In this document: piece after piece, positions 999-53,495 of the stretch
Layout: each line of letters opens with the position of its first letter
Position numbering within the stretch: position 1 is the stretch's first letter
DNA from: Rhodoferax sp.
GTDB lineage: Bacteria; Pseudomonadota; Gammaproteobacteria; Burkholderiales; Burkholderiaceae_C
NCBI GenBank assembly: GCA_043738115.1
Contig: JAYSZJ010000036.1
Coordinates: 23,996 to 87,995 of the forward strand
Length of the DNA: 64,000 nucleotides
Direction of reading: 5' to 3'
The notes under the pieces: model-generated
Databases searched by the model: none
Seen by the model: only the letters and a program-made list of their open reading frames with translations
Told to the model about the DNA's origin: nothing
Translations under genes and position numbers: made by a program

Positions 999-3446
999 TT
1001 AGTGTTTCACCGACCCCTGCAAATCCGAAACCGGCACGCTGGCCGCTACCACCGCTGTCGCGGGGGCAACCTCATCTTCGGGCAAAGGAACAGGCTTGGA
1101 TTCCAACGCCAAGTCCAACACCTTGTCGATCCAGCGAACAGGAATGATCTCAAGACCGTTTTTCACATTGGCGGGAATATCTTGCAAATCCTTGGCGTTG
1201 GCCTCGGGAATCAGCACAGTCTTGATACCACCGCGCAGGGCCGCCAACAGCTTTTCCTTTAATCCGCCTATTTCGGTGACCTCACCGCGCAGGGTGATCT
1301 CGCCCGTCATGGCGACATCACCGCGCACAGGGATACCTGTCAGCGCAGAAACAAAAGCCGTGGTCATCGCAGCGCCGGCACTGGGGCCGTCTTTGGGTGT
1401 CGCACCATCTGGCACGTGGATGTGGATGTCTTTTTTCTCAAAGATCTCGTCCTTGATACCCAGGCGGCGTGCACGGCTGCGCACCACGGTACGGGCGGCC
1501 TCCACAGACTCTTTCATCACATCACCTAAAGAACCCGTGCGCGTGATAACACCTTTGCCCGGGGTCAATGCCGCTTCAATGGTCAACAAATCTCCACCCA
1601 CTTCGGTCCAGGCCAAGCCAACCACCTGTCCTACCTGGTTCTGCTGCTCGGCACGTCCATAGGTGTACTTGCGCACGCCCAGGTAGTCGTTGAGGTTGTC
1701 GACGGTCACCACAACTTGCGGTTTGAGCTTCTTCAACAACAAGCCCTTGACGACCTTGCGGCAGATTTTGGAGAGTTCGCGTTCGAGTGAACGCACACCG
1801 GCCTCGCGGGTGTAGTAACGCACAATGTCACGCACCGCCTCTTCCGTGATCGACAACTCGGCGTCTTTGACACCGTTGTTTTTCATCTGCTTGGGCAAAA
1901 GGTAGGTGATCGCAATATTGGTCTTCTCATCCTCGGTGTAACCGGACAAGCGGATAACTTCCATACGGTCCAACAGGGCCGACGGTATGTTCATGGAGTT
2001 TGATGTGGCCACAAACATTACATCACTCAGGTCGTAATCGACCTCGACGTAATGGTCTCCAAACTTGTGGTTCTGCTCGGGGTCCAGCACCTCCAGCAAG
2101 GCACTGCTTGGGTCGCCACGAAAATCCGTACCGAGCTTGTCTATCTCGTCCAACAGGAAGAGCGGATTGCGTGTACCGACTTTGGACAGGCTTTGCAATA
2201 CCTTGCCCGGCATGGCACCGATGTAGGTACGGCGGTGCCCGCGGATCTCCGCCTCATCACGCATGCCACCCAACGCCATACGCACGTACTTGCGACCTGT
2301 CGCCTTGGCAATAGATTGCCCCAAGGATGTTTTACCAACACCAGGGGGGCCAACCAGACACAGAATCGGTGCCTTGAGTTTGTCGACCCGTTGTTGCACC
2401 GCGAGATATTCCAGGATGCGATCCTTGACCTTGTCGAGCCCGTAATGGTCTTCGTTCAGCACGGCCTCGGCATTCGCCAAGTTGTGTTTGATCTTCGTCT
2501 TCGCGGTCCAAGGCAATCCCACCAATACGTCTATGTAGTTTCGCACCACTGTGGCCTCAGCGGACATCGGCGACATCAGCTTGAGCTTCTTCAGCTCGCC
2601 TTCAACTTTCTTGAGGGCATCCTTAGGCATTTTGGCAGCCTTGATCTTTTTCTCGATCTCTTCGATGTCCGCGCCCTCTTCACCCTCACCCAGTTCTTTC
2701 TGGATGGCCTTGACCTGCTCGTTCAAATAAAAGTCGCGCTGGTTTTTTTCCATCTGGCGTTTGACACGCCCGCGTATCTTCTTGTCGACGTTCAGGATGT
2801 CTACTTCACGCTCGATCTGCTCAAACAAGTTTTCCAGGCGATCCTTCACGCTGGACAGACCCAGCACCGCCTGTTTGCTGTCGAGCTTTAGCGGCAGATG
2901 CGCAGCAATGGTGTCGGCCAAGCGACCGGCATCATCAATGCTGGAAATGGACGTCAAAATCTCTGGCGGAATTTTCTTGTTGAGTTTGACGTACTGGTCA
3001 AACTGCTGCATCACCGCACGGCGCAGGGCCTCTACCTCGCTGGCCTTGTTGCCACGACTTTTTTCGGGGGTATCGGGCACAACGGCAATAGGCGTGATAT
3101 TGGCCGAGAAATAAGCCTCGCCTTCTTCGATTTTGTTGACCGCTGCACGCTGATGGCCCTCGACCAACACCTTGACGGTGCCATCGGGCAACTTGAGCAT
3201 TTGCAGGATGGTCGATACACAACCGACATCAAACATGTCGGACACCAGCGGATCATCCTTGGCGGCCGTGCGTTGGGCGACCAGCATGATGCGCCGGTCT
3301 GTCTCCATCGCGGCTTCAAGAGCCTTGATGCTCTTGGGGCGCCCGACAAACAGCGGGATCACCATGTGGGGGAAAACAACCACGTCACGCAGTGGCAACA
3401 GTGGCAAATCTATGGGGGTAGCAGGCAGTGGGGAATGGCCAGACAT
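999..3446 (-). CDS. lon: ATP-dependent protease La
   Basis: LPLLPLRDVVVFP N-domain, Walker A GPPGVGKTS, catalytic PKDGPSAG. Confidence 0.98.
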   Translation of the reverse strand: MSGHSPLPATPIDLPLLPLRDVVVFPHMVIPLFVGRPKSIKALEAAMETDRRIMLVAQRTAAKDDPLVSDMFDVGCVSTILQMLKLPDGTVKVLVEGHQRAAVNKIEEGEAYFSANITPIAVVPDTPEKSRGNKASEVEALRRAVMQQFDQYVKLNKKIPPEILTSISSIDDAGRLADTIAAHLPLKLDSKQAVLGLSSVKDRLENLFEQIEREVDILNVDKKIRGRVKRQMEKNQRDFYLNEQVKAIQKELGEGEEGADIEEIEKKIKAAKMPKDALKKVEGELKKLKLMSPMSAEATVVRNYIDVLVGLPWTAKTKIKHNLANAEAVLNEDHYGLDKVKDRILEYLAVQQRVDKLKAPILCLVGPPGVGKTSLGQSIAKATGRKYVRMALGGMRDEAEIRGHRRTYIGAMPGKVLQSLSKVGTRNPLFLLDEIDKLGTDFRGDPSSALLEVLDPEQNHKFGDHYVEVDYDLSDVMFVATSNSMNIPSALLDRMEVIRLSGYTEDEKTNIAITYLLPKQMKNNGVKDAELSITEEAVRDIVRYYTREAGVRSLERELSKICRKVVKGLLLKKLKPQVVVTVDNLNDYLGVRKYTYGRAEQQNQVGQVVGLAWTEVGGDLLTIEAALTPGKGVITRTGSLGDVMKESVEAARTVVRSRARRLGIKDEIFEKKDIHIHVPDGATPKDGPSAGAAMTTAFVSALTGIPVRGDVAMTGEITLRGEVTEIGGLKEKLLAALRGGIKTVLIPEANAKDLQDIPANVKNGLEIIPVRWIDKVLDLALESKPVPLPEDEVAPATAVVAASVPVSDLQGSVKH

Positions 3447-3590
3447 AAGGGACCTTTTTATTACCTGATGAATATGGACTACGAATCCTGAATTTCAAGC
3501 GATCTGCCATTATCCCGGCAGGTCACTTTTTAATACTCCACTATTCCCGCACAAAAGCACGTCTTTTCAGGCCGTTGTGCTGGACAAGGG

Positions 3591-4955: not shown

Positions 4956-5585
4956 TCAGGCGCGTTTGGCAATCACCTGGTCAATCAGGCCATATTCCTT
5001 GGATTCCTCTGCCGTCATGTAGTAGTCGCGTTCTGTATCACGCGCTATGCGCTCCAGCGGTTGACCGGTGCGCTCGGCCAGCACCTTATTCAATTGCTCG
5101 CGGGTTTTCAGGATTTCACGTGCTGCAATTTCAATTTCCGTCGCCTGACCCTGGCTGCCGCCCGAGGGCTGGTGGATCATGACCTTGGAATTGGGTAGGG
5201 AGAAACGTTTACCTTTCGCACCCGCAGCCAACAGGAACGCGCCCATGCTGGCGGCCATGCCTACGCACAGTGTGGAGACTTCGGGCTTGATGAAGTTCAT
5301 GGTGTCGAAAATCGCCATGCCCGCGCTGACGGAGCCACCAGGCGAATTGATATAGAAGGAAATGTCCTTGTCAGGGTTTTCGCTTTCCAGGAAAAGCAAC
5401 TGGGCGACCACCAGATTGGCCGTCTGGTCATTGACCGGGCCCACCAGAAAAATCACACGCTCCTTGAGCAAACGCGAGTAGATGTCGTACGAGCGCTCGC
5501 CCCGACCCGATTGCTCAATGACCATGGGGACCATGCCCAGCCCCTGCGTTTCCATAGCGTCTGTCCGTCCGTAATTGATATGCAT
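4956..5585 (-). CDS. clpP: Clp protease proteolytic subunit (start may be the downstream METQG Met)
   Basis: [25 protein letters not shown]. Confidence 0.98.
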
Positions 5586-34673: not shown

Positions 34674-35216
34674 ATGGAGAAAACTATCGCAGCCCTCTTG
34701 CTATTGACAACGCTAGCGGGCACCGCACACGCACAGGTGCGCAAATGCATACTGCCGGACGGCCAGGTGACCTACAGTGACGTCTTGTGCAACAAAGGCG
34801 TTGCGAAGCAGGCCGATGTCAACCTCGTTGCCAATACGACGGACAAATCACCCGAACGTGCGCAGGCCCGCAAATTCGCCATGGAAAGGCTCATCGCCCT
34901 GGCCCGACAGAGGGAGCCCAACCGGTGCAAGTTCAGTGTGGAACACAGCATCCAGGGCGATGGGAAACAACTGGCCGAAGCGGCCACGCATGAATGCTTC
35001 TCCAACATCGTGGCTGAACAAACCGGCCACCCCGTCCGCAACGAGGCGTTTGAACGCTGGTTCGAAAACCAGCAACTGGCGCAAGGCAATCGCAGCGCAA
35101 GTGTTGCGGACCCGATCCAACAAACAACCCCTGACCAGAGCGAAAAAGGCCCCGACTGCAAAACCGCCAAACCCAACAGCGCTTGCAGTAAACCGGCAAC
35201 GCCTCGATCGTCATAG
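34674..35216 (+). CDS. Secreted protein, DUF4124-like N-terminus
   Basis: Signal peptide ending AHA followed by QVRKCILPDGQVTYSDVLC. Confidence 0.7.
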   Translation: MEKTIAALLLLTTLAGTAHAQVRKCILPDGQVTYSDVLCNKGVAKQADVNLVANTTDKSPERAQARKFAMERLIALARQREPNRCKFSVEHSIQGDGKQLAEAATHECFSNIVAEQTGHPVRNEAFERWFENQQLAQGNRSASVADPIQQTTPDQSEKGPDCKTAKPNSACSKPATPRSS

Positions 35217-35375
35217 CCCGCCTGTCACTGCGGCCCAAGGTATCTGTGCCCAACGTGCGCTAGCTGCGGTCCGTGGCGGCAATGAAGATGGGCAGCCTTG
35301 GCGACATCCTTAAGACATTCCTGGCTGTAGCCCCCGTCTATGCTATCTGAATAGCTACCAACTTTATAGCATTCC
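35215..35375 (-). pseudogene. aceE-like 3' fragment A, telescoped by internal deletions; contains the 63-nt repeat at 35309-35371
   Basis: 35225-35271 matches 55715-55761 at 39/47 nt; 35309-35371 matches 56041-56103 at 48/63; translates as CYKVGSYSDSIDGGYSQECLKDVAKAA...IAATDRS*RTLGTDTLGRSDRRA. Confidence 0.85.
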
Positions 35376-35654
35376 CAGCAAAACCGGCGAATAGCCTGTT
35401 GGATTTTCTTCTCCACGAAGCACTACGGTGCCCCCCAATTTTGGAAAACGGGTGCAGGCTCGGCATAGCCATGTCAGGGTTTTTTCACACACACCTGTCA
35501 CACAACCGTCAAATGAGGTGGTGACACTGCGCCACTCTCGGACGGTTTCAGGCGGTTTTCCGCACCACCGCCGTGTGATCGGTCGCACGATGCGTCGCCG
35601 CCGGCATTTGGGCCAATGGCAGCGCTGCCTATTTATTACTCACAAGGTTTTTTG

Positions 35655-38635: not shown

Positions 38636-38820
38636 CTGCGCCCTTGCCCACCTCAGTCAGAACGGCACCAGAGCCAAGCAACGCAATATCTTTAAGCGAA
38701 TGAGGACCATAGCCCCCGTCGGTGTTGCGTAAATTGCTACCAACTTTATAGCACCCATTCACTACATCGGCCTCTGCACCATCAGGCAGATCCGGACGGA
38801 CACAGAAATTATGGGTGACG
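38636..38820 (-). pseudogene. aceE-like fragment B; contains the 63-nt repeat at 38691-38753
   Basis: Translates as PDLPDGAEADVVNGCYKVGSNLRNTDGGYGPHSLKDIALLGSGAVLTEVGK versus aceE PDLPVGAEAEVVRGCYKFVSYSRSTDGGYGPNSLKEVTLMGSGAILTEVVK; core 55/63 nt identical. Confidence 0.92.
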
Positions 38821-41847: not shown

Positions 41848-42639
41848 TCATTTCATTTGGTAGTAAACGATTTCCATCACAAGCTTGCCATACACATGGG
41901 TGACAGCCCATTTGAACAAGCTGAACAACGCGCCTGCAATGACGAGCTTGTGCCATTCTTTTCGAACATCGATCAGGAAGAACTGCTTGAACGCTATCGT
42001 GATCAGCGCGAGATTGACCAGATACATGTAGAAGCGGGAATATTCCTTATGGAGTGCAAGCACTTCGGGGCTACCCATTATGAGAAGCGGAAGCTGGTTC
42101 GCAATATGAAAACAAATGCTCAAAAAATGGCAATAAATGGCGAGGACCAGGAACTCCGTCAGGTTATAGCCGAGTCGTCCGCGGAAGACTGCATACGCGC
42201 TGAAGAAGATAGCGATGATTCCGAGCGAGAACGACCATTTTGAATATTCGCGCACTAGGGCGAACGCTTTGGATGCCTCAACGCTGCTATGCACGGAGGT
42301 CAGGTACTGAGTCTGATTCAAGACGACAAGCAATACACCAATCGCGATTAAAAGCAACTTGAGCGGATGGACATGTTTCTTACGCTTACCGAGAACATAT
42401 TCGCGTGCGACGGTACCGGGACTCGTCAACAAACGATATGCCGAGCGCACTACCTCCATCTCAAACCAGCGCACCATTTCCCACGCCTCTTTACCAACCT
42501 GAACACGCGTGAGCCGTGCCACTTTCTTTTGACCGCAGGATGAGCAGAACGGTCCGCTCAGGGAGGCCCCGCAATTCAGGCAAATCTCGCCAGCGAAACC
42601 AACGTTCTCAACGGAGGACAAAGGCGTTTCGGAACTCAT
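41848..42639 (-). CDS. DUF3667-like membrane protein with an N-terminal Zn ribbon
   Basis: CLNCG...FCSSCGQK, PGTVAREYVLGKRKK..HPLK; lower GC than the flanks. Confidence 0.8.
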   Translation of the reverse strand: MSSETPLSSVENVGFAGEICLNCGASLSGPFCSSCGQKKVARLTRVQVGKEAWEMVRWFEMEVVRSAYRLLTSPGTVAREYVLGKRKKHVHPLKLLLIAIGVLLVVLNQTQYLTSVHSSVEASKAFALVREYSKWSFSLGIIAIFFSAYAVFRGRLGYNLTEFLVLAIYCHFLSICFHIANQLPLLIMGSPEVLALHKEYSRFYMYLVNLALITIAFKQFFLIDVRKEWHKLVIAGALFSLFKWAVTHVYGKLVMEIVYYQMK

Positions 42640-42916
42640 GCTTCGGATGCCGTGGCTATGCCTGGTGTCAGCATCGCCTTACATGCAGGGCTGGAAATAA
42701 CCAGACTTACCGGTCTATTCTGACAATGGCGATTCATTGAGTAAGTGCAAATTTTGATGCGTCGAATCATGCCATAAAGGTCACATTCACCAGTGGCGGC
42801 AATCGGGGGATTCTGCAGTATCGTTTGGCAATACCGCTAGTAGCCGTAGTGGAGCCCCGACGATCTTTTCCACGAAGCCGTGTAGCGGGGCTGTAAACCA
42901 ATTGCGGCGCACAGTC

Positions 42917-43143
42917 TCACTGGCGCGCTGTGGCACCTTGAAGAGCATCTCAGTGAACCGCTGTCAATTAAGGAACCCGCGCCCCCACTGGTCGTCAAAC
43001 TCAGCAGTCGGCTTGGAATCAATCACTTCGACAAGTGCCTTACCCGCCTTGACCTAATCACCGATGCGCTGGGATACCGTGACTAACATGTCGCGGTAGG
43101 CTTTGAGGTCGGCCTTGTTCGCCACCGGGCCATGACCAGGTAT
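42917..43143 (-). pseudogene. Diverged duplicate of the 3' end of the MBL hydrolase gene (45794-46021)
   Basis: IPGHGPVANKADLKAYRDML...; GAGGTCGGCCTTGTTCGCCACCGGGCCATGACCAGG is identical in both copies; premature TAG at 43054-43056. Confidence 0.92.
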
Positions 43144-43234
43144 CGCAATTTCAAGCTTGTGCATAAGCGCTCCTTTGTTGCAATCAGGGATCACAATTTA
43201 GATTCCCTACGCGGCATTGTTTATGTCGCAATGT

Positions 43235-43846
43235 TTAGTCTGTGGATGGTGCGTATAGCCGGACCTGTGGGCCATAACCAGCGTCAGGACAGAGAGTGAA
43301 GCAGTCATCCGTAAAGTTTTTCATTGATCGCGCATACAGCAAAAGAAAGTCGTATCTGTCGTTGGACAGTTCGTCGCAGATCTCGTCATCTGACATTCCT
43401 TTTGTTTCCAACCCCATTTGTTCAAGAATCTCATTGGTGTTCAATGTCAGGCTTGCCCCTAGATACGACTCATGATTAATCCGGCCGATCCATCCTCTAT
43501 GCTTTCCCTTTAGGATTTCAACATGCTCATCGCCAACATAGTCAGTACCGATGATGAAAAAATAGTCGCTTAATGGGTGCGATTGGTTATTTTTGATCAG
43601 GTCGTATTCTTCGTCGTCATGGTCAAGGCTGTAAAAATATCCAGCTTCGGCATCTCCGAATATTTCGCTAGCTTCAAGATATTTTTCGTTGCCAAGATCT
43701 TCCAAAAAGAGGGCCTCGAAAAAGCCGTTTTGCGTCAATAAAAAAGTCGCGTACGAATCCGAAAAGTTATACCGTTTCTGCAGCTCTCTAACTCTGCTGG
43801 AAATCGGTAAAGCAAATCCAAATGGATTGGGAAATTTTATTTTCAT
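43235..43846 (-). CDS. SMI1/KNR4 (SUKH)-like immunity-type protein
   Basis: RELQKRYNFSDSYATFLLTQNG N-terminal pattern, IIGTDYVGD; acidic; markedly AT-rich. Confidence 0.6.
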   Translation of the reverse strand: MKIKFPNPFGFALPISSRVRELQKRYNFSDSYATFLLTQNGFFEALFLEDLGNEKYLEASEIFGDAEAGYFYSLDHDDEEYDLIKNNQSHPLSDYFFIIGTDYVGDEHVEILKGKHRGWIGRINHESYLGASLTLNTNEILEQMGLETKGMSDDEICDELSNDRYDFLLLYARSMKNFTDDCFTLCPDAGYGPQVRLYAPSTD

Positions 43847-44035
43847 TTTTGATGTGGCAACTATTCACATGCAGTATTGCTAAGCACTTCGTCAATGAGG
43901 TTGGCGACAGTTTTAAACTCTAAAAATCTTGATTCCGAGCAGCGCGGGTCCACCCAGAACCAGGGGCAAGGCTTTTCTCGCCCCAAGCGAGATTTCCGTC
44001 TTTTTAGACAATCAAACGCTCCACGATGTCCAGGG

Positions 44036-45699
44036 TTACTTCAGCACCAATCGCAACGACACCAGGCGGTACTTTTCATAGGTAGCAAGAACAAAATAGG
44101 TCGCTTGAGGGGCCCCGGTCACCACTTCAACCCGCCACCGACGGCTCAGGCTGCCATCGCCCTTGTAGGTATCCCAGGTGTGTTCATTGAATTCGTCTTC
44201 TCCTAAACGCTTGTCTGTAGCGGCCAGCCCTTCATCGAAACGAAAACCAAGTGGCAGTGCATCCCCGAAGGCCGAGCACAGTAGGTAGTTGCCCGTGCTG
44301 TTGCCAACGTTGGCATAGCCTTCCCCAGTGAATTCAATGGTTTCTATGAGTTTGATTTTTTTGCGCTGGTGTGTGGCCTTATTGGCAGCATGGTCCTCGC
44401 CTAGACGTTCGTGAGCCCACGGGAGCGCCAGATGGATGAAGAAACCAAGCGTTGGTGCATCGATATACGTGTCCCATGTCGTCGATGGAATATTCAGCTT
44501 CAGCTCCTCGACAAATGCTGTTACTTCAGGTGCAGTGGTGAGTCTGCCCAGCAGACCGAGAAGGCGGGCGGTGAGGTGCGTAGGCATTGGCGCGGCCGAT
44601 GGTGCCATAGCGGAAATCGGCCCTGTTGAGTCCCGGTTCGCTTGGTCTGCATCTCGATAGCTTTGGGGTGCTGCCAGCTTGCCCATCTTCAGTTGCGCCT
44701 CGCGATAGACGGCTTTCACTTGTTGCAGTACATCCGGCTTAAGGTCGGTTTTGAGATACGTCATTTCGAAGTCTCGAAACCGGGCATCGAGAAACATTGC
44801 AAACCGCTCGTAGTTTTCCCAGGTATCGCCGGCTTCGAGACCGCGACCTTTGAAATGGGGTGTAAACACCGCCATGAAATCGTCGTCGATACCGCAGCGG
44901 TCTTCCCTTCCAAGAAGTGGGGTGGAGCTGTTGCGGTTGCATAAACAGTTGAGATACTTGCGGGCGAATGTTTCTGTTGCTTCGCTGACATCCCAACTCC
45001 AGACCTCGCCGCAATAGGCCGCGCGTACAGAAACTCACGGCCAGTCATCTTGCGTTCGCGCACAGCCTTGACGAGCTCAGCGTGTTCCTCCAGGTGCCGT
45101 GCGCCGATCCTGCCACGGTCAATGCACCACGCGATGAACATACCCATGGGCAGATCAGCTTGGTCATCGGGCCAGGACGGGTTCCAAGGACTGAACGCGT
45201 GTGAACGCGCAGGCGAACGCACAAACGCGTACCGGTCGTTGTCTCGCACGTTGATCGTCCATCGACGCTCCATCTTGCCGTCTTCGTCGAATGAAACCAG
45301 CAATGTTGCGAGGTCGCTCACCGGCAGTCGATACGACGTATCGCCAATGCTATTGCGGCTGACCGCTACACCGGGTACCGCCGCCCACTGTGGCTGCGTC
45401 ATGTGGTGGGAAATGTTGGCAAGTGCCTCGGGCAACCCGGAGAGTTCAACATCACTGGGTGAAAACCAGATAGATGTCACGTAGGAAATTTCCTTTCGAC
45501 CCTCCTTCTTTGGTGGATAGAACCCTGGCGCCAATACCTCCCAGTGCCACGCCAACTCCACGTCGTGCTTCTTCGCACTGACGTACCCCTCTTTCTTTGG
45601 AGCCAGCGGGACTTTTCCGCCGAACTGGGTCACCAACGCCTCCACCTCGGGCGAATCTTTGCGCTGACCGACTGCTGCGATGATCTTGGCTAGTTCCAT
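44036..45699 (-). pseudogene. Frameshifted multi-domain hypothetical gene (about 553 aa if repaired), immunity-protein-like
   Basis: ORFs 44761-45699 and 44036-44875 join if 2 nt are removed at the GCGCG run (about 45020-45025): ...MTGREFLY|AAYCGEVWSWDV...DTWENYERFAMFLDARF; the second frame is open from 45016. Confidence 0.7.
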
Positions 45700-45793
45700 G
45701 GGCAGGATCCTGTGTAAATAGTTCGTGGGGTAAAGGCCGTTGGGCGGGGCGCACCGATTTGGCTATGCGCTCGATCGGCACCAGCGTAGGGCC

Positions 45794-46687
45794 TCACGGG
45801 CGTGCTATGAAGCCCTTGAAAAGCATTTCTGTGAACCGCTGGGAATTGAGGAAACCACGCCCCCACTGTTCGTCAAACTCCGCGGTCGGTTTGGACTCGA
45901 CCACCTCGGCAAGTGACTTACCCGCCTTGACCTGGTCACGGATGCGCTTGGATACAGTGGCCAACATGTCACGGTAGGCCTTGAGGTCGGCCTTGTTCGC
46001 CACCGGGCCATGACCAGGGATGAATTTTGTGCCGTCCCCGGCCATACCCATCGCGCGGTCAGCCGCGGCAATCACGCCGTCGACACTGCCGCCGCTAGAC
46101 GAATCAATGAAGGGGTAGAGCTTGTTGAAGAAGATGTCACCCATGTGGATCACATCGGCCTTGCGGAAGTGGACGATGGAATCACCATCGGTGTGTGCGT
46201 TCGGAACGTGTTGGACAACAATCTCCTCGCCGTTCACATGAAACGTGGTGTCCTGTGCAAACGTGATCACCGGCAGGGCAGCACGTGGTTCAGCCTTGAC
46301 CTTCATTCCCAGAAATTCAATGAACTGCTCGGTGGACATGCGTTTGCGCACGTTTTCGTGACCCACGATGATTGCCCCCGACGCACCGAAGCTTTCGTTG
46401 CCCCCGGTATGGTCGAAGTGCCAGTGGGTGTTGAGCAGGAAGGTGACCGGCTTGGTGGTAAGTTTGGCGATCGCCGCCTTGATCTTGGGCGCGAGCGGCG
46501 CGAACTGGTCGTCAACCATGAACACCGCGTCCTCACCCACGCAAAGGCCGATGTTGCCACCGGCACCGGTCAAGAGGTAGACGTTGCCCGAGAGCTGTTG
46601 CGCGACGATTTCAACTTTGGAATAGTCCTGTTGCTGTGCGAAGACCGAGGACGCGGCCATCAACAATGCCAAAAATAGTTTTTTCAT
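45794..46687 (-). CDS. Secreted MBL-fold metallo-hydrolase (cyclase-like)
   Basis: Signal peptide MKKLFLA, NTHWHFDHTGGN, AHTDGD, HMGD, PGHG. Confidence 0.93.
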   Translation of the reverse strand: MKKLFLALLMAASSVFAQQQDYSKVEIVAQQLSGNVYLLTGAGGNIGLCVGEDAVFMVDDQFAPLAPKIKAAIAKLTTKPVTFLLNTHWHFDHTGGNESFGASGAIIVGHENVRKRMSTEQFIEFLGMKVKAEPRAALPVITFAQDTTFHVNGEEIVVQHVPNAHTDGDSIVHFRKADVIHMGDIFFNKLYPFIDSSSGGSVDGVIAAADRAMGMAGDGTKFIPGHGPVANKADLKAYRDMLATVSKRIRDQVKAGKSLAEVVESKPTAEFDEQWGRGFLNSQRFTEMLFKGFIARP

Positions 46688-46755
46688 GGTGCTGTGGGTG
46701 GTGAGAATGCTGGAGAGTGGCATTCTATGGAAAATTCCCGAACAGCCCAGTGTGC

Positions 46756-49014
46756 CTAGGCCGCCTTGAAAGGCAGCGTTCGCAAGCGCTGCCCACTCGC
46801 GGCAAACACTGCATTGGACAGAGCGGCGGCTACCGGGTGCGAGGCCGGCTCACCGATGCCAGTGGGCGCGGCGACGCTGTCCACCAGAATAGTCTCTATG
46901 GTCGGCATTTCGTCGATGCGCAACAGGGGGTAGTCGTGAAAGTTGCTCTGTTGCACACGCCCCTGCTCAACCGTGATGGCGCCTTTCAAGGCAGCGGTCA
47001 AGGCAAACACGATGCTGCCCTCGACCTGTGCTCTGACCAATTGCGGATTGATGACCCTACCGCAGTCGACCACCGACACAACCCGGTACACCTTCAGCAC
47101 GCCGTCCTTAACTTCCGCTTCGATCACCTGCGCCACATAGCTGTCGGTCACTGTGGCGGCCAGACCGCGCCCCACACCTGCCGGCAATATATTGCCCCAG
47201 CCGGCGGCCTGGCCCGCCAAACGCAACACGTGGGCCAGCCGGCCGGTGTCGATAAGCTCGTGGTCCCCCTCGTTTCGGAACTTCAGTTCCTGCGCGGGGG
47301 CCAATAGCCCCAGGCGATACTGCAGCGGGTCGACGCCGGCCGCGTGGGCGCATTCGTCTAACAGGCATTCGTTGACGAAGGTATGGTTGGGCGTGTAGCC
47401 GCGGCGCCACCAGAACACGCGGATTGCCTGCTCCACCAAACGGTGGCTGACGTGCCGGTTGTCGGTCGCATAGGGGAACTTCACTGCATCAATGGCGGCG
47501 GTGGCGTCGAGCCCGTCGGCAGCGATCAGCTGGGGCTCCTGCTGTTTGCGCACCGACAGCGCAGCGAAAGCATGGTCCAGTGCCAGAATGCGGCCGCGCG
47601 CATCCAACGCCACGCGCACGTGGTGGCGGCTGGGCGGCGCGTACAACCCATAACGAATGTCGTCTTCGCGGGTCCAGACCACTTGCACCGGGTGATTGAT
47701 TTCGCGCGACAGCATCACCGCCTCGATGGCGTAGTCGGCGTCCAGGCGCCGGCCAAAACTGCCGCCCAACAGGGGTGTATGGATGATGACGCGCTCGCCC
47801 GGCAGGCCGGTCAGCTCACGCAGTACGTTGTGCAACTGGGTCTGCGCATGACATGGTGCCCACACCTCGCAACGTTCTGGTGTCCAGTGGGCCACCGCGT
47901 TCATCGGCTCCATCGGCACGTGTGCCTGCAGCGGCACGTCGTAAACCAGGTCCAGCGTTTTGGCGGCGCGCTTGAAGGCGTCCATCATGCTGTCCGGTGT
48001 GCCCTGGCGCACGGCCGTAACTGCCGGGTGGATGACATCCGGCCCGGTAGTGACCACCCCGCCGGCCAGCGCGCGCTTGAAGTCTTGCGCCAGCGTGCTG
48101 CTTGACGCCAGTGCACCGTTGCGCGCCTTGGTATCCGACCACGACTCATTCCAGGCCACTTTCAATTGCTCACGTCCCTGCATCGCAGACCAAGTCGAAC
48201 GCGCCACGACGGCGACACCGTCGCGCACGTAGGCCAGTGTCGGAAAGGTGTTGCCGCGCAGCTTGACCACATGCGTCACACCCGCCACGGCACGGGTGGC
48301 GCGCTCGTCAACACGTGCGACCCGACCATTGATGACCGGACTGCGCTCGATCACCGCATACAACATGTCTGGCACCCGCACGTCCAGGCCGTAAACGGCT
48401 TCCGCGCGCACGATGGCCTGCAGGTTTTTGGCAGGCAGGGGCTTACCGATCAGGGTGAAGGACTGCGGTGATTTCAACGTAGGCGCTTCGGGTACTTTGA
48501 GCGCCGCAGCCCGGCTCACCAGCTCGCCATAGGGAATTCGCCGCCCGCTGGCCCCGTGCACCACCGCATGGCGCTCAGTGTGGCAGGCGGCCATTTCCAC
48601 ACCCAGCGCCTGCGCACCGGCCTGTTGCAGCATCTGCCGGGCTGCCGCTGCCGCTTTGCGCCCACCAACCCAAGCACCGGCCGTGCTGTAGGAACCACCG
48701 GTAACCATGAAACGCTTGCTGTCGGGGCGCACCGTTTTCACGCTGACCTGCGCCCAATCGGCATCCAACTCGTCGGCCACGATCATGGCAGTGCCGGTCT
48801 CGGTGCCCTGGCCCATTTCGGTCTTGGAGATCATCACAGTCACCGCACCAGTGGTGTCGATGCGCAGTAACGCATTCGGCTGAAATTGGGTGTCTGTGTT
48901 GTTCGCCTGTGCCACCGCGCGGTCCAAACGAAATCCAAGTGTCAACGACACGGCAGTCGTGACGGCCAGTCGCAAAACGGTGCGACGAGCGGGCGAGGCA
49001 GGTTGCATCTTCAT
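46756..49014 (-). CDS. Molybdopterin-binding subunit, isoquinoline 1-oxidoreductase/xanthine dehydrogenase family (Tat signal)
   Basis: RRTVL signal, [19 protein letters not shown]. Confidence 0.92.
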
Positions 49015-52297: not shown

Positions 52298-52390
52298 CGC
52301 GCATACATTCCAGCACGGCGTACACCCAATCGGTGGCCGACATGATGGGCCGGTGCTGCCTTGGAATTGGCGCTGCCACTTCGGTCTGGA
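52298..52390 (-). pseudogene. aceE-like 3' fragment C (telescoped)
   Basis: 52313-52363 matches 55791-55842 at 42/52 positions (PIMSATDWVYAV versus PIIAATDYVCAV); 52370-52390 matches 55986-56012 with a short deletion. Confidence 0.8.
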
Positions 52391-52439
52391 CGCCGCCCCG
52401 ACCTACCTATAATTTTCCCCTTTTTTACTAGGAAAACCC

Positions 52440-53441: not shown

Positions 53442-53462
53442 CAGCGTGCTGTTGTCCGGCCC

Positions 53463-53495
53463 CGCGTATCACGGAGGCCAAAACCATCTGTGCCC
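53463..53495 (-). pseudogene. aceE-like 3' fragment D
   Basis: 29/33 nt identical to 55709-55741 (GTDGFGLRDTR versus GTDGFGRSDTR). Confidence 0.75.

What the first reader, a model, noticed from the sequence alone, without database searches (positions are those of the whole stretch)
42917..46021. Immunity-like cassette bracketed by a duplicated MBL 3' end, with a visible illegitimate-recombination junction
Seen: 42917-43143 is a diverged direct repeat of 45794-46021, the 3' end of the MBL gene. Between the copies are two foreign genes. At the duplicate's 5' edge a strong SD (AAAGGAG) and ATG at 43164 begin an unrelated MHKLEIA that fuses in frame to MBL IPGHGPVANK... and stops at a new TAG (43054), giving a 36-aa chimeric ORF missed by the track. 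Inference: this fits a donor circle closed by illegitimate joining inside the next cassette gene, then integrated by one crossover in the MBL 3' segment. It is the same pattern as the aceE scars, nested inside one of their blocks and using a different target gene.
Basis: partly seen in the sequence, partly recalled or inferred. Interest (0 to 1): 0.72.

Follow-up and report, generated by a model that had tools for sequence, protein, structure and literature searches.

The report
Gene-tail scar beside an inserted cassette
A two-gene, immunity-like DNA cassette was added right behind a hydrolase gene by ordinary recombination rather than by a mobile-element enzyme, pushing the gene's old tail downstream, where it now decays as a visible scar; this looks like a repeatable way for these bacteria to gain genes.

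Summary
Window 42916-43143 (copy A) is a decayed direct copy of 45794-46021 (copy B), the last 228 nt of an MBL-fold hydrolase gene.

- **Insert:** between the copies lie a DUF7832-family gene, broken here by a 1-nt deletion, and an intact divergent SUKH-1 gene.
- **Empty site:** a Rhodoferax MAG has MBL followed directly by the DUF3667 gene. Its MBL tail is the copy-A type.
- **Two alleles:** A and B differ mainly at third codon positions, so they come from two once-functional alleles, not from an in-place duplication.
- **Recurrence:** the same cassette sits in another metagenomic lineage behind a GyrI-like gene, again bracketed by a copy of that gene's tail. A homologue in Rhizobacter is bracketed by a copy of an internal segment of a nitrilase-family (CN_hydrolase) gene. 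The window genome holds four aceE scars and a SnoaL case with empty sites.

Best reading: integrase-free additive integration, with one homologous exchange in the MBL 3' end plus one illegitimate joint. The likeliest route is a recircularised fragment entering by single crossover, which has been shown experimentally in E. coli (PMC3240628).

The circle cannot be separated from a linear one-sided event. The crossover cannot be mapped. No gene starting MHKLEI was found. This is a natural footprint of a known process, of moderate interest.

The parts
45794..46723 (-). MBL-fold hydrolase gene. The ORF is 309 aa; homologues start at MKKLF, so the true start is probably ATG 46687 (297 aa).
   Evidence: Pfam Lactamase_B, E=3.6e-15. 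Close homologues at 89-96% identity, 295-297 aa.
45794..46021 (-). Copy B: the 3' end of the intact MBL gene, from IPGHG to the stop, with tail FKGFIARP*.
   Evidence: The tail type resembles L105 (TIARP) and L116 (VKARP), not L023 (AMARQ).
45747..45793 (-). 47-nt spacer after the MBL stop. It is found in neither the empty site nor the other cassette copies.
   Evidence: L023 and L105 homology ends at 45790; L103/L104 homology starts at 45746-45750.
43234..45746 (-). Two-gene cassette, 89% identical to ENA metagenome contigs L103 and L104, where it sits in a different context.
   Evidence: blastn: L103 799-3312 matches window 45746-43234.
44036..45699 (-). DUF7832-family gene (554 aa when intact), here a pseudogene with a 1-nt deletion near 45026 that splits it into ORFs 44761-45699 and 44036-44875.
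   Evidence: The deletion is present in both source-run assemblies. In Atlas clusters the domain co-occurs with Imm33, SUFU and DUF4304.
43235..43846 (-). Intact 203-aa divergent SUKH-1 (SMI1/KNR4) family gene, immunity-like.
   Evidence: Direct Pfam hit only E=0.051. Homologues at E 1e-23 to 1e-25 pass the Pfam threshold in the matching region. 10 of 25 family members hit SMI1_KNR4. AF2 model pLDDT 92.7; best PDB folds are 2pag and 3d5p.
43144..43234 (-). 91-nt segment between the SUKH stop codon and copy A. It holds AAAGGAG and ATG 43164 (MHKLEIA); its right edge is the novel joint.
   Evidence: No other copy in the genome or in any fetched locus.
43054..43164 (-). 36-aa chimeric ORF: MHKLEIA fused to the MBL sequence IPGHG..., ending at the new TAG.
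42916..43143 (-). Copy A: the displaced, decaying MBL 3' end, with two in-frame stops and a 1-nt deletion. Its tail is of the L023 type.
43106..43143 (-). 38-nt block identical in A and B (its B twin is 45984-46021). It is the longest identical run and a candidate crossover site.
   Evidence: The k=31 contigs of both source runs break exactly here.
42788..42915 (-). 128-nt spacer after copy A that is absent from the empty site L023. Origin unknown.
   Evidence: No other copy anywhere.
41848..42639 (-). DUF3667 gene, the resident downstream neighbour. It directly follows MBL in L023.

Best explanation
A foreign DNA fragment carried the last ~230 nt of a related MBL allele, a 47-nt spacer, the DUF7832 and SUKH-1 genes, and 91 nt of whatever followed them in the donor. 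After entering the cell its ends were joined illegitimately into a circle. That joint is the 43143/43144 boundary. The circle then integrated by one RecA-type homologous crossover inside the resident MBL 3' end, probably in or near the 38-nt block that encodes the invariant PGHGPVANKADLK motif.

The result is purely additive. MBL stays intact but now ends in the incoming tail (copy B). The cassette follows it. The resident tail (copy A) is displaced, still attached to its old neighbour DUF3667, and has since decayed. No integrase, transposase or specific site is needed.

Shown: the duplication, the foreign insert, the empty site, the two-allele origin of A and B, and recurrence elsewhere. Inferred: the circular intermediate and the position of the crossover.
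For: - **Repeat and abrupt joint:**
- **Empty site:** in L023, MBL runs directly into the DUF3667 block.
- **Tail types:** copy A's last ~22 nt match the L023 tail and share its neighbour, while B's tail matches other allele types.
- **Two alleles:** A and B differ at 22 of 75 third codon positions but only 12 of 150 first and second positions (Fisher p=5e-5). In the 3' half the counts are 16/37 and 6/74. They therefore diverged as functional alleles in separate lineages.
- **Foreign insert:** low G+C, and the cassette occurs elsewhere at 89% identity.
- **No recombinase:** Pfam finds no integrase or transposase family in the insert's genes.
- **Experimental precedent:** in E. coli, linear DNA with homology only to the lacZ 3' end mostly recircularised and entered by single crossover. 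This duplicated 109-950 bp of the lacZ end in 56 of 60 clones, against 4 true one-sided events (PMC3240628).
- **Recurrence of the signature:**
  - L103: the same cassette behind a GyrI-like gene, with a 62-nt repeat at 90%.
  - L126, Rhizobacter: a DUF7832 homologue flanked by a 240-nt repeat at 85% of an internal part (about aa 108-185) of a CN_hydrolase gene.
  - Four aceE scars in the window.
  - A SnoaL case in the same genome with empty sites in two genus relatives.
Against: - **Crossover not located.** The reciprocal mosaic a single crossover predicts (B resident then donor, A donor then resident) cannot be shown, because the last 37 codons are saturated at synonymous sites in every allele pair. 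Copy A's unique changes are also evenly spread.
- **Identical block may be conservation.** The 38-nt identity could simply reflect an invariant protein motif.
- **No donor found.** No arrangement of MBL, cassette and an MHKLEI gene turned up in three protein searches and two metagenome scans.
- **Unexplained spacer.** A 128-nt spacer after copy A is missing from the empty site.
- **Old event.** About 8-10% of copy A's positions have changes unique to it, so fine details are eroded.
- **Uptake route unknown.** Neither the route of DNA entry nor an end-joining activity in this organism was examined.
Confidence: 0.5

Rival explanations
1. A linear one-sided event (homology-facilitated illegitimate recombination). 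A linear donor fragment pairs homologously with MBL, or further upstream. Its far, non-homologous end is joined directly to the resident MBL at the IPGHG codons. Copy B, and possibly more of MBL, would then be donor DNA throughout, and copy A would be resident throughout.
For: It gives the same final structure. Copy A's unique changes are evenly spread (about 10% in each half), and B has no unique change in its 5' half, which fits 'A all resident plus decay' slightly better. Copy A keeps the resident tail and neighbour. The process is documented in several transformable bacteria (introduction of PMC3240628). The sequence AAATT occurs a few bases upstream of the boundary in both partners, a possible microhomology.
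Against: Described events usually delete recipient DNA of a size similar to the insert, rather than leaving everything intact. In the one direct comparison available they were 14 times rarer than circle plus crossover. Window-to-L023 synonymous divergence of the MBL 5' part (0.27) is close to that of DUF3667 (0.36), with no sign of a donor tract upstream of the repeat.
Confidence: 0.28
2. A remnant of a site-specific integrative element that carries a substitute 3' end for its target gene, as phage 21 and e14 do in icd, or as tRNA-linked islands do. Its integrase would be lost or supplied in trans.
For: The architecture matches: an intact gene with a substituted tail, a displaced diverged original tail, and an identical 38-nt block at the 5' edge of the repeat that could be a core site.
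Against: The 2.9-kb insert holds no recombinase, and the gene-sized ORFs scanned between about 34.6 and 55.5 kb gave no integrase or transposase family. The same cassette sits behind unrelated genes (MBL, GyrI-like), and its DUF7832 homologue behind a CN_hydrolase gene, with repeats of 228, 62 and 240 nt. That would need a new substitute tail and a new specificity each time. The identical block encodes an invariant protein motif.
Confidence: 0.08
3. A local origin: either an in-place duplication of the MBL tail made by the insertion event itself, or two old tandem MBL paralogues with the second eroded from its 5' end.
For: Copy A's nearest relative in the 5' half is copy B (90% identity, against 80-86% to the other alleles).
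Against: A-to-B differences are concentrated at third codon positions (p=5e-5), which neutral decay of a fresh copy does not give. B's tail matches other allele types at several linked sites. No relative shows tandem MBL genes. L023 has a single MBL with the copy-A tail type.
Confidence: 0.06
4. An assembly artefact. The chromosome would carry only one MBL tail, and the 2,878-nt unit would be a separate circular or strain-variant sequence wrongly threaded in through the shared 38-nt block.
For: Contigs built with k=31 from both source runs break exactly in the 38-nt block. The cassette piece has lower word depth (8.1 and 7.8) than its flanks (10.7-11.7).
Against: The only alternative path through the graph would join the MBL 5' part to the decayed copy A, giving a truncated gene. 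The window itself lies on a single contig that carries both junctions. How that contig was assembled is not known here, so this is weak support. Analogous bracketed structures occur in independent assemblies, including a complete Rhizobacter chromosome.
Confidence: 0.04

Closest known systems
Recircularisation plus RecA single-crossover integration of DNA with one-sided homology (E. coli conjugation experiments, PMC3240628)
   Same: The insert is flanked by a direct duplication of the 3' part of the anchor gene (109-950 bp in the experiments, 228 bp here). There is one illegitimate joint and no dedicated recombinase, and the integration is additive.
   Different: This is a natural and old event between alleles that differ by about 10-20%, in a Burkholderiales metagenome-assembled genome. 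The circular intermediate is inferred, not seen.
Homology-facilitated illegitimate recombination in naturally transformable bacteria
   Same: One homologous anchor plus one illegitimate joint brings in foreign DNA next to a shared gene.
   Different: Described events usually delete recipient DNA. Here nothing is lost and the anchor's tail is duplicated.
Orphan toxin-tip and immunity modules downstream of rhs and cdiA genes (e.g. PMC3967940)
   Same: An incoming 3' end with immunity-type genes displaces the older 3' end, which stays downstream as a fragment. Serial events build arrays, as the aceE scars do here.
   Different: The anchor genes here (MBL hydrolase, aceE, SnoaL, GyrI-like) are not polymorphic toxins, and the displaced piece has no variable toxic tip. 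No toxin gene is adjacent.
Phage 21 / e14 integration into icd with a substitute 3' end, and tRNA-linked islands with partial-gene repeats (from general knowledge; not checked in a paper here)
   Same: An intact target gene with a substituted tail, and a displaced diverged original tail at the far end of the insert.
   Different: Those use a site-specific integrase and a fixed core site. Here there is no integrase, and the same cassette sits behind different genes.
SUKH-1 (SMI1/KNR4) and associated immunity-protein families
   Same: ORF203 has the SUKH fold and belongs to a family whose other members pass the Pfam model. The DUF7832 domain is found fused with Imm33, SUFU and DUF4304.
   Different: ORF203 itself scores below Pfam's threshold. 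No cognate toxin is known, and the DUF7832 gene is broken here.

Membership tests
Single-crossover (Campbell-type) integration of a recircularised fragment | A direct duplication of the homologous segment brackets the inserted DNA. | tested here: met
   228-nt repeat at 85-87%, 2,878 nt start to start.
Single-crossover (Campbell-type) integration of a recircularised fragment | One novel, non-homologous joint lies at the 5' edge of the downstream copy. | tested here: met
   Homology ends abruptly at 43143/43144. The 91 nt upstream are unique in the genome.
Single-crossover (Campbell-type) integration of a recircularised fragment | Reciprocal mosaic: the upstream copy runs resident then donor, and the downstream copy runs donor then resident. 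| tested here: inconclusive
   The tails fit (A resident-type, B other type). The 5' halves cannot be phased, because all alleles are saturated in the last 37 codons.
Single-crossover (Campbell-type) integration of a recircularised fragment | An uninterrupted (empty) site exists in relatives. | tested here: met
   L023: MBL stop codon, 4 nt, then the DUF3667 block.
Single-crossover (Campbell-type) integration of a recircularised fragment | A circular intermediate. | not testable with these tools
   The source runs are held only as k=31 contigs, which break in the 38-nt block.
Homology-facilitated illegitimate recombination | The illegitimate joint lies at a 3-10 bp microhomology, with recipient DNA deleted. 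| tested here: inconclusive
   AAATT occurs near the boundary in both partners, but no recipient DNA is missing relative to L023.
Site-specific integrative element with a substitute gene tail | An integrase, or another recombinase, belongs to the element. | tested here: not met
   The insert's genes gave only DUF7832 and a weak SMI1_KNR4 match. The gene-sized ORFs scanned in the surrounding region (about 34.6-55.5 kb) gave no recombinase family.
Site-specific integrative element with a substitute gene tail | The same attachment site is used wherever the element occurs. | tested here: not met
   The cassette sits behind MBL here and behind a GyrI-like gene in L103, and its DUF7832 homologue sits behind a CN_hydrolase gene in L126.
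rhs/cdiA orphan toxin-immunity arrays | The repeated fragment is the conserved part of a polymorphic toxin gene and is followed by a variable toxic tip. | tested here: not met
   The anchor is a Lactamase_B-fold hydrolase that is conserved to its end.
SUKH-1 (SMI1/KNR4), for ORF203 | A match to Pfam PF09346 at or above its gathering score. | tested here: not met
   14.6 bits, E=0.051, against a cut-off of 25.4 bits.
SUKH-1 (SMI1/KNR4), for ORF203 | Homology to bona fide members, and the SUKH fold. | tested here: met
   P0126 and P0131 (phmmer E=6e-25 and 4e-23 to ORF203) score 35.9 and 35.3 bits for SMI1_KNR4 in the matching region. 10 of 25 family members hit it. The top PDB folds are 2pag and 3d5p, an SMI1/KNR4 protein (probability 0.96, TM 0.63 by target), although the Foldseek E-values are weak at 0.09-0.16.
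Integron gene cassette | An attC recombination site after the gene, and an intI integrase nearby. | not tested
   No attC search was run. No integrase family was found in the ORFs scanned around the insert.

The most novel reading that the evidence does not exclude
Serial 'anchor-gene accretion' could be a main integrase-free route of gene gain in these Burkholderiales. Fragments that carry the tail of a shared gene plus new cargo are added behind that gene again and again. Each event replaces the gene's tail and leaves the old one as a datable scar. This would build hotspots such as aceE-DUF4124, and it would explain why the last ~110 nt of the MBL gene are far more diverged at synonymous sites than the rest in every allele pair.
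Probability: 0.35. Interest if true: 0.65.

Novelty: new member of a known kind. Interest (0 to 1): 0.42.

Why it matters
Gene gain at hotspots that lack mobile-element genes is usually put down to double crossovers in flanking core genes, which leave no trace. Here the event left a readable footprint, with an empty site and independent repeats of the same architecture. The footprint consists of a displaced gene tail, one illegitimate joint and a substituted tail.

If it is general, such scars give three things:
- a simple sequence signature for counting integrase-free additive insertions in genomes;
- a relative dating and ordering of the layers in a genomic island, such as the four aceE scars with this MBL scar nested inside one block;
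- a way to see how orphan immunity genes travel between lineages.

Tried and rejected
- **Mapping the crossover.** I used three-way and eight-way alignments of MBL tails. An apparent break near 45905, where identity to L023 falls from about 93% to 80%, is not specific. Every allele pair is hyper-divergent in the last 37 codons.
- **Searching for the donor or an MHKLEI gene.**
  - The word-indexed protein search with ORF203 found only one cluster.
  - Two metagenome scans, with ORF203 and with DUF7832, found nothing.
  - The 91-nt and 128-nt segments have no other copy in the genome or in any fetched locus.
- **MBL in the same genus.** None of 24 genus genomes sampled has a close MBL (best 31% identity). 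The MBL gene is itself accessory.
- **Promoter and terminator scan of the insert.** No more sites than in shuffled sequence.
- **glnS case (contig C101).** It looked analogous, but relatives place a conserved 150-nt stretch between the inserted gene and the glnS copy, which does not fit the simple scheme. No tRNA or Rfam family matches there. It is left unresolved.
- **GT41 case (contig C64).** No informative relatives.
- **Literature.** No paper mentions DUF7832, and I found none describing natural scars of this type.
- **Protein Atlas.** It could not read ORF203 because the service was busy.
Full report
**1. What is there**

On the minus strand the window reads as follows:
- a molybdopterin-binding oxidoreductase subunit (46756-49014);
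- an MBL-fold hydrolase (45794-46723, probable true start 46687);
- two overlapping ORFs of 312 and 279 aa (44036-45699);
- a 203-aa ORF (43235-43846);
- a 228-nt copy of the MBL tail (42916-43143);
- a DUF3667 gene, an M48/TPM protein and an acyltransferase.

The repeat is real. It is 208 nt ungapped at 87%, or about 228 nt at 85% with one indel, and these are the only two copies in the 5.0-Mb genome. Copy B runs from the IPGHG codons to the MBL stop codon. Copy A has two in-frame stops and a 1-nt deletion.

**2. The insert**

Two ENA metagenome contigs (L103, L104) carry the same two genes at 89% identity. Homology runs from 47-51 nt upstream of the first start codon to the stop codon of the second gene, window 45746 to 43234. 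In those contigs the first gene is one intact 554-aa DUF7832-family protein.

In the window, a single missing base near 45026 splits that gene into two ORFs. Contigs assembled independently from two source runs show the same sequence with no difference, so the frameshift belongs to the population rather than to the assembly. In protein-atlas clusters the DUF7832 domain is fused with Imm33, SUFU, DUF4304 and similar immunity-type domains.

ORF203 scores only E=0.051 for SMI1_KNR4 directly. The supporting evidence is indirect:
- An exhaustive HMMER search finds a family of about 60 clusters.
- Members such as P0126 and P0131 pass Pfam's threshold for SMI1_KNR4 in exactly the matching region.
- 10 of 25 aligned members hit the family.
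- A confident AlphaFold2 model (pLDDT 92.7) has 2pag and the SMI1/KNR4 protein 3d5p as its best PDB folds.

So 'immunity-like' holds: one broken multidomain DUF7832 gene plus one intact divergent SUKH-1 gene, with no toxin gene beside them. G+C falls to 0.43-0.48 around ORF203 and 0.48-0.58 over the rest of the insert, against 0.58-0.66 in MBL and the gene upstream of it.

**3. Empty site and resident tail**

A Rhodoferax sp. MAG contig (L023) matches window 46758-45790 (MBL, 91%). It then continues without a break into window 42787-39991 (DUF3667 and M48/TPM, 83%). The alignment shows the MBL stop codon, four bases, then the DUF3667 block.

The last ~22 nt of copy A are nearly those of the L023 gene (tail ...ARQ*). 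Copy B ends ...FIARP*, a tail type seen in other alleles such as L105 (TIARP) and L116 (VKARP). So the resident tail stayed with its neighbour DUF3667, and the intact gene acquired a different tail together with the cassette.

No relative shows two tandem MBL genes. The MBL gene occurs singly in five other contexts:
- behind malK in L023;
- behind aceE in L105-L107;
- behind a ketoacyl synthase in L111;
- behind the same 2Fe-2S and molybdopterin genes in L114;
- on the short contigs L115 and L116.

**4. Two alleles, not a fresh duplication**

A and B differ at 22 of 75 third codon positions but at only 12 of 150 first and second positions (Fisher p=5e-5). In the 3' half the counts are 16/37 and 6/74. 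Neutral decay of a newly made copy would hit all positions alike. This pattern means the two tails diverged while both were working genes in different lineages.

On top of that, copy A carries about 17-20 changes found in no other allele, the stops and the indel. That is roughly 8-10% decay since the event. The event is therefore old.

**5. What cannot be resolved**

Identity of the window MBL to L023 drops from about 93-98% to about 80% over the last ~120 nt, and synonymous divergence there is 1.1 against 0.27 upstream. I first read this as the crossover point. However, every pair of alleles shows the same excess in the last 37 codons, so it is not specific to this event and the crossover cannot be placed.

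The longest identical run between A and B is 38 nt at the very 5' edge of the repeat. That would suit a crossover there, but it encodes an invariant motif. As a result I cannot decide between two cases. Either copy A's 5' part is donor DNA (circle plus single crossover), or it is resident DNA (a linear fragment joined directly to the resident gene).

**6. Mechanism**

Both versions need one homologous exchange in or upstream of the MBL tail and one illegitimate joint at 43143/43144. I rank the circle first because of a direct experiment. In E. coli, linear DNA sharing only the 3' end of lacZ was mostly trimmed, recircularised and integrated by a RecA-dependent single crossover. This duplicated 109-950 bp of the lacZ end in 56 of 60 clones, while true one-sided illegitimate events made up 4 of 60 (PMC3240628).

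A site-specific element is unlikely. Pfam finds no recombinase in the insert's genes or in the gene-sized ORFs scanned between about 34.6 and 55.5 kb. The same cassette also sits behind different genes elsewhere.

**7. Recurrence**

- **L103:** the same cassette follows a GyrI-like/Cass2 gene. A 62-nt, 90% copy of that gene's 3' part lies just downstream of the cassette, and the tails differ.
- **Rhizobacter chromosome (L126):** a 76%-identical DUF7832 gene, itself hit by an IS3-family element, follows a CN_hydrolase gene. It is followed by a 240-nt, 85% copy of an internal part (about aa 108-185) of that gene.
- **aceE in the window:** four fragments of the aceE 3' region lie at 53462-53495, 52299-52403, 38636-38798 and 35215-35376. 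They divide the stretch between aceE and the DUF4124 gene into blocks. Relatives fill that stretch differently: L105 has aceE-MBL-2-hydroxyacid dehydrogenase, and L114 has aceE-2Fe2S-MoCo-MBL-DUF4124.
- **SnoaL, contig C56 of the same genome:** a SnoaL-like gene is followed by a 218-aa ORF and then a 135-nt, 95% copy of the SnoaL tail. Two genus relatives have the uninterrupted site, and the downstream copy again carries the resident tail and neighbour.

A quick genome-wide screen lists further candidates that I did not resolve.

**8. Assembly caveat**

The k=31 contigs from both source runs break exactly in the 38-nt block. The cassette piece has word depth 8.1 and 7.8, against 10.7-11.7 for the flanks. 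At k=31 the integrated form cannot be told from 'empty chromosome plus 2,878-nt circle'.

The window itself lies on a single contig that carries both junctions. I do not know how that contig was assembled, so this is only weak support for the integrated form. The alternative path would truncate MBL. Even so, the depth ratio of about 0.72 in both samples is unexplained and could mean that some cells lack the cassette.

**9. Verdict**

It is unproven in its particulars, namely the circle, the crossover position and the MHKLEI gene.

This is a natural, unusually legible example of a process known from experiments, and it resembles the displacement of toxin tips in rhs/cdiA loci. It is not a new kind of system. 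Its interest lies in the recurrence, which suggests a general and countable footprint of integrase-free gene gain.

Noticed in passing
window 44990-45060: The DUF7832 gene is a pseudogene here. One base is missing (TACCGCGCG in L103 reads TACGCGCG here), which splits a 554-aa gene into ORFs of 312 and 279 aa. The same sequence is present in both source-run assemblies.
   Followed up: yes
window 35215-35376, 38636-38798, 52299-52403, 53462-53495: Four decayed fragments of the aceE 3' region divide the aceE-DUF4124 stretch into blocks. Relatives (L105, L106, L114) fill the same stretch with different gene sets, and L106 has its own aceE scar at 5187-5311.
   Followed up: partly
L103:230-291 and 3428-3489: The same DUF7832 and SUKH cassette in an ENA metagenome contig is bracketed by a 62-nt, 90% repeat of the 3' part of the upstream GyrI-like/Cass2 gene. 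The two copies have different tails.
   Followed up: yes
L126:4954-9572 (Rhizobacter sp. chromosome CP050901): A DUF7832 homologue, interrupted by an IS3-family transposase gene, lies between a CN_hydrolase gene and a 240-nt, 85% copy of an internal part of that gene (about aa 108-185).
   Followed up: partly
G000 contig C56:43589-44808 (L119:1590-2809): A SnoaL-like gene is followed by a 218-aa unknown ORF and then a 135-nt, 95% copy of the SnoaL tail. The central 100 nt are identical and both edges differ at allelic sites. Empty sites exist in G021:C240 and G052:C318.
   Followed up: yes
G000 contig C101:13267-15628 (L118); contig C64:8292-9828 (L117): The tail of glnS is repeated after a 611-aa gene of the HATPase/VRR-NUC type. 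The tail of a GT41/TPR glycosyltransferase gene is repeated after a small insert. The glnS case does not fit the simple scheme, because a stretch that directly follows glnS in relatives lies before the copy.
   Followed up: partly
window 45794-45905 and the MBL alleles in L023, L105, L111, L114-L116: The last 37 codons of this MBL gene differ at 30-50% of third positions in every allele pair, against 13-40% just upstream (13-24% among the closest alleles) and about 20% in the 5' part. The tails of this gene seem to be exchanged or to evolve unusually fast.
   Followed up: partly
window 43111-43132 and 45989-46010: Contigs of both source runs break in the 38-nt block shared by the two copies. 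The cassette piece has about 0.72 of the word depth of its flanks in both samples. This could reflect heterogeneity or excision.
   Followed up: no
window 44029-45729: An ice-metagenome run (X3) holds the DUF7832 gene alone at about 96% identity, with different sequence on both sides. It has the base that the window lacks near 45023, and its own 1-nt deletion at 44614.
   Followed up: no
window 42788-42915: A 128-nt stretch between copy A's stop codon and the DUF3667 block is absent from the empty site L023 and has no other copy in the genome.
   Followed up: partly
G000 contig C141:68453-73452 and C134:75925-83598: Further clusters of diverged short direct repeats (three 247-nt copies at 85-89%, and others) appeared in the genome-wide screen. 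They may be more scars of this type.
   Followed up: no
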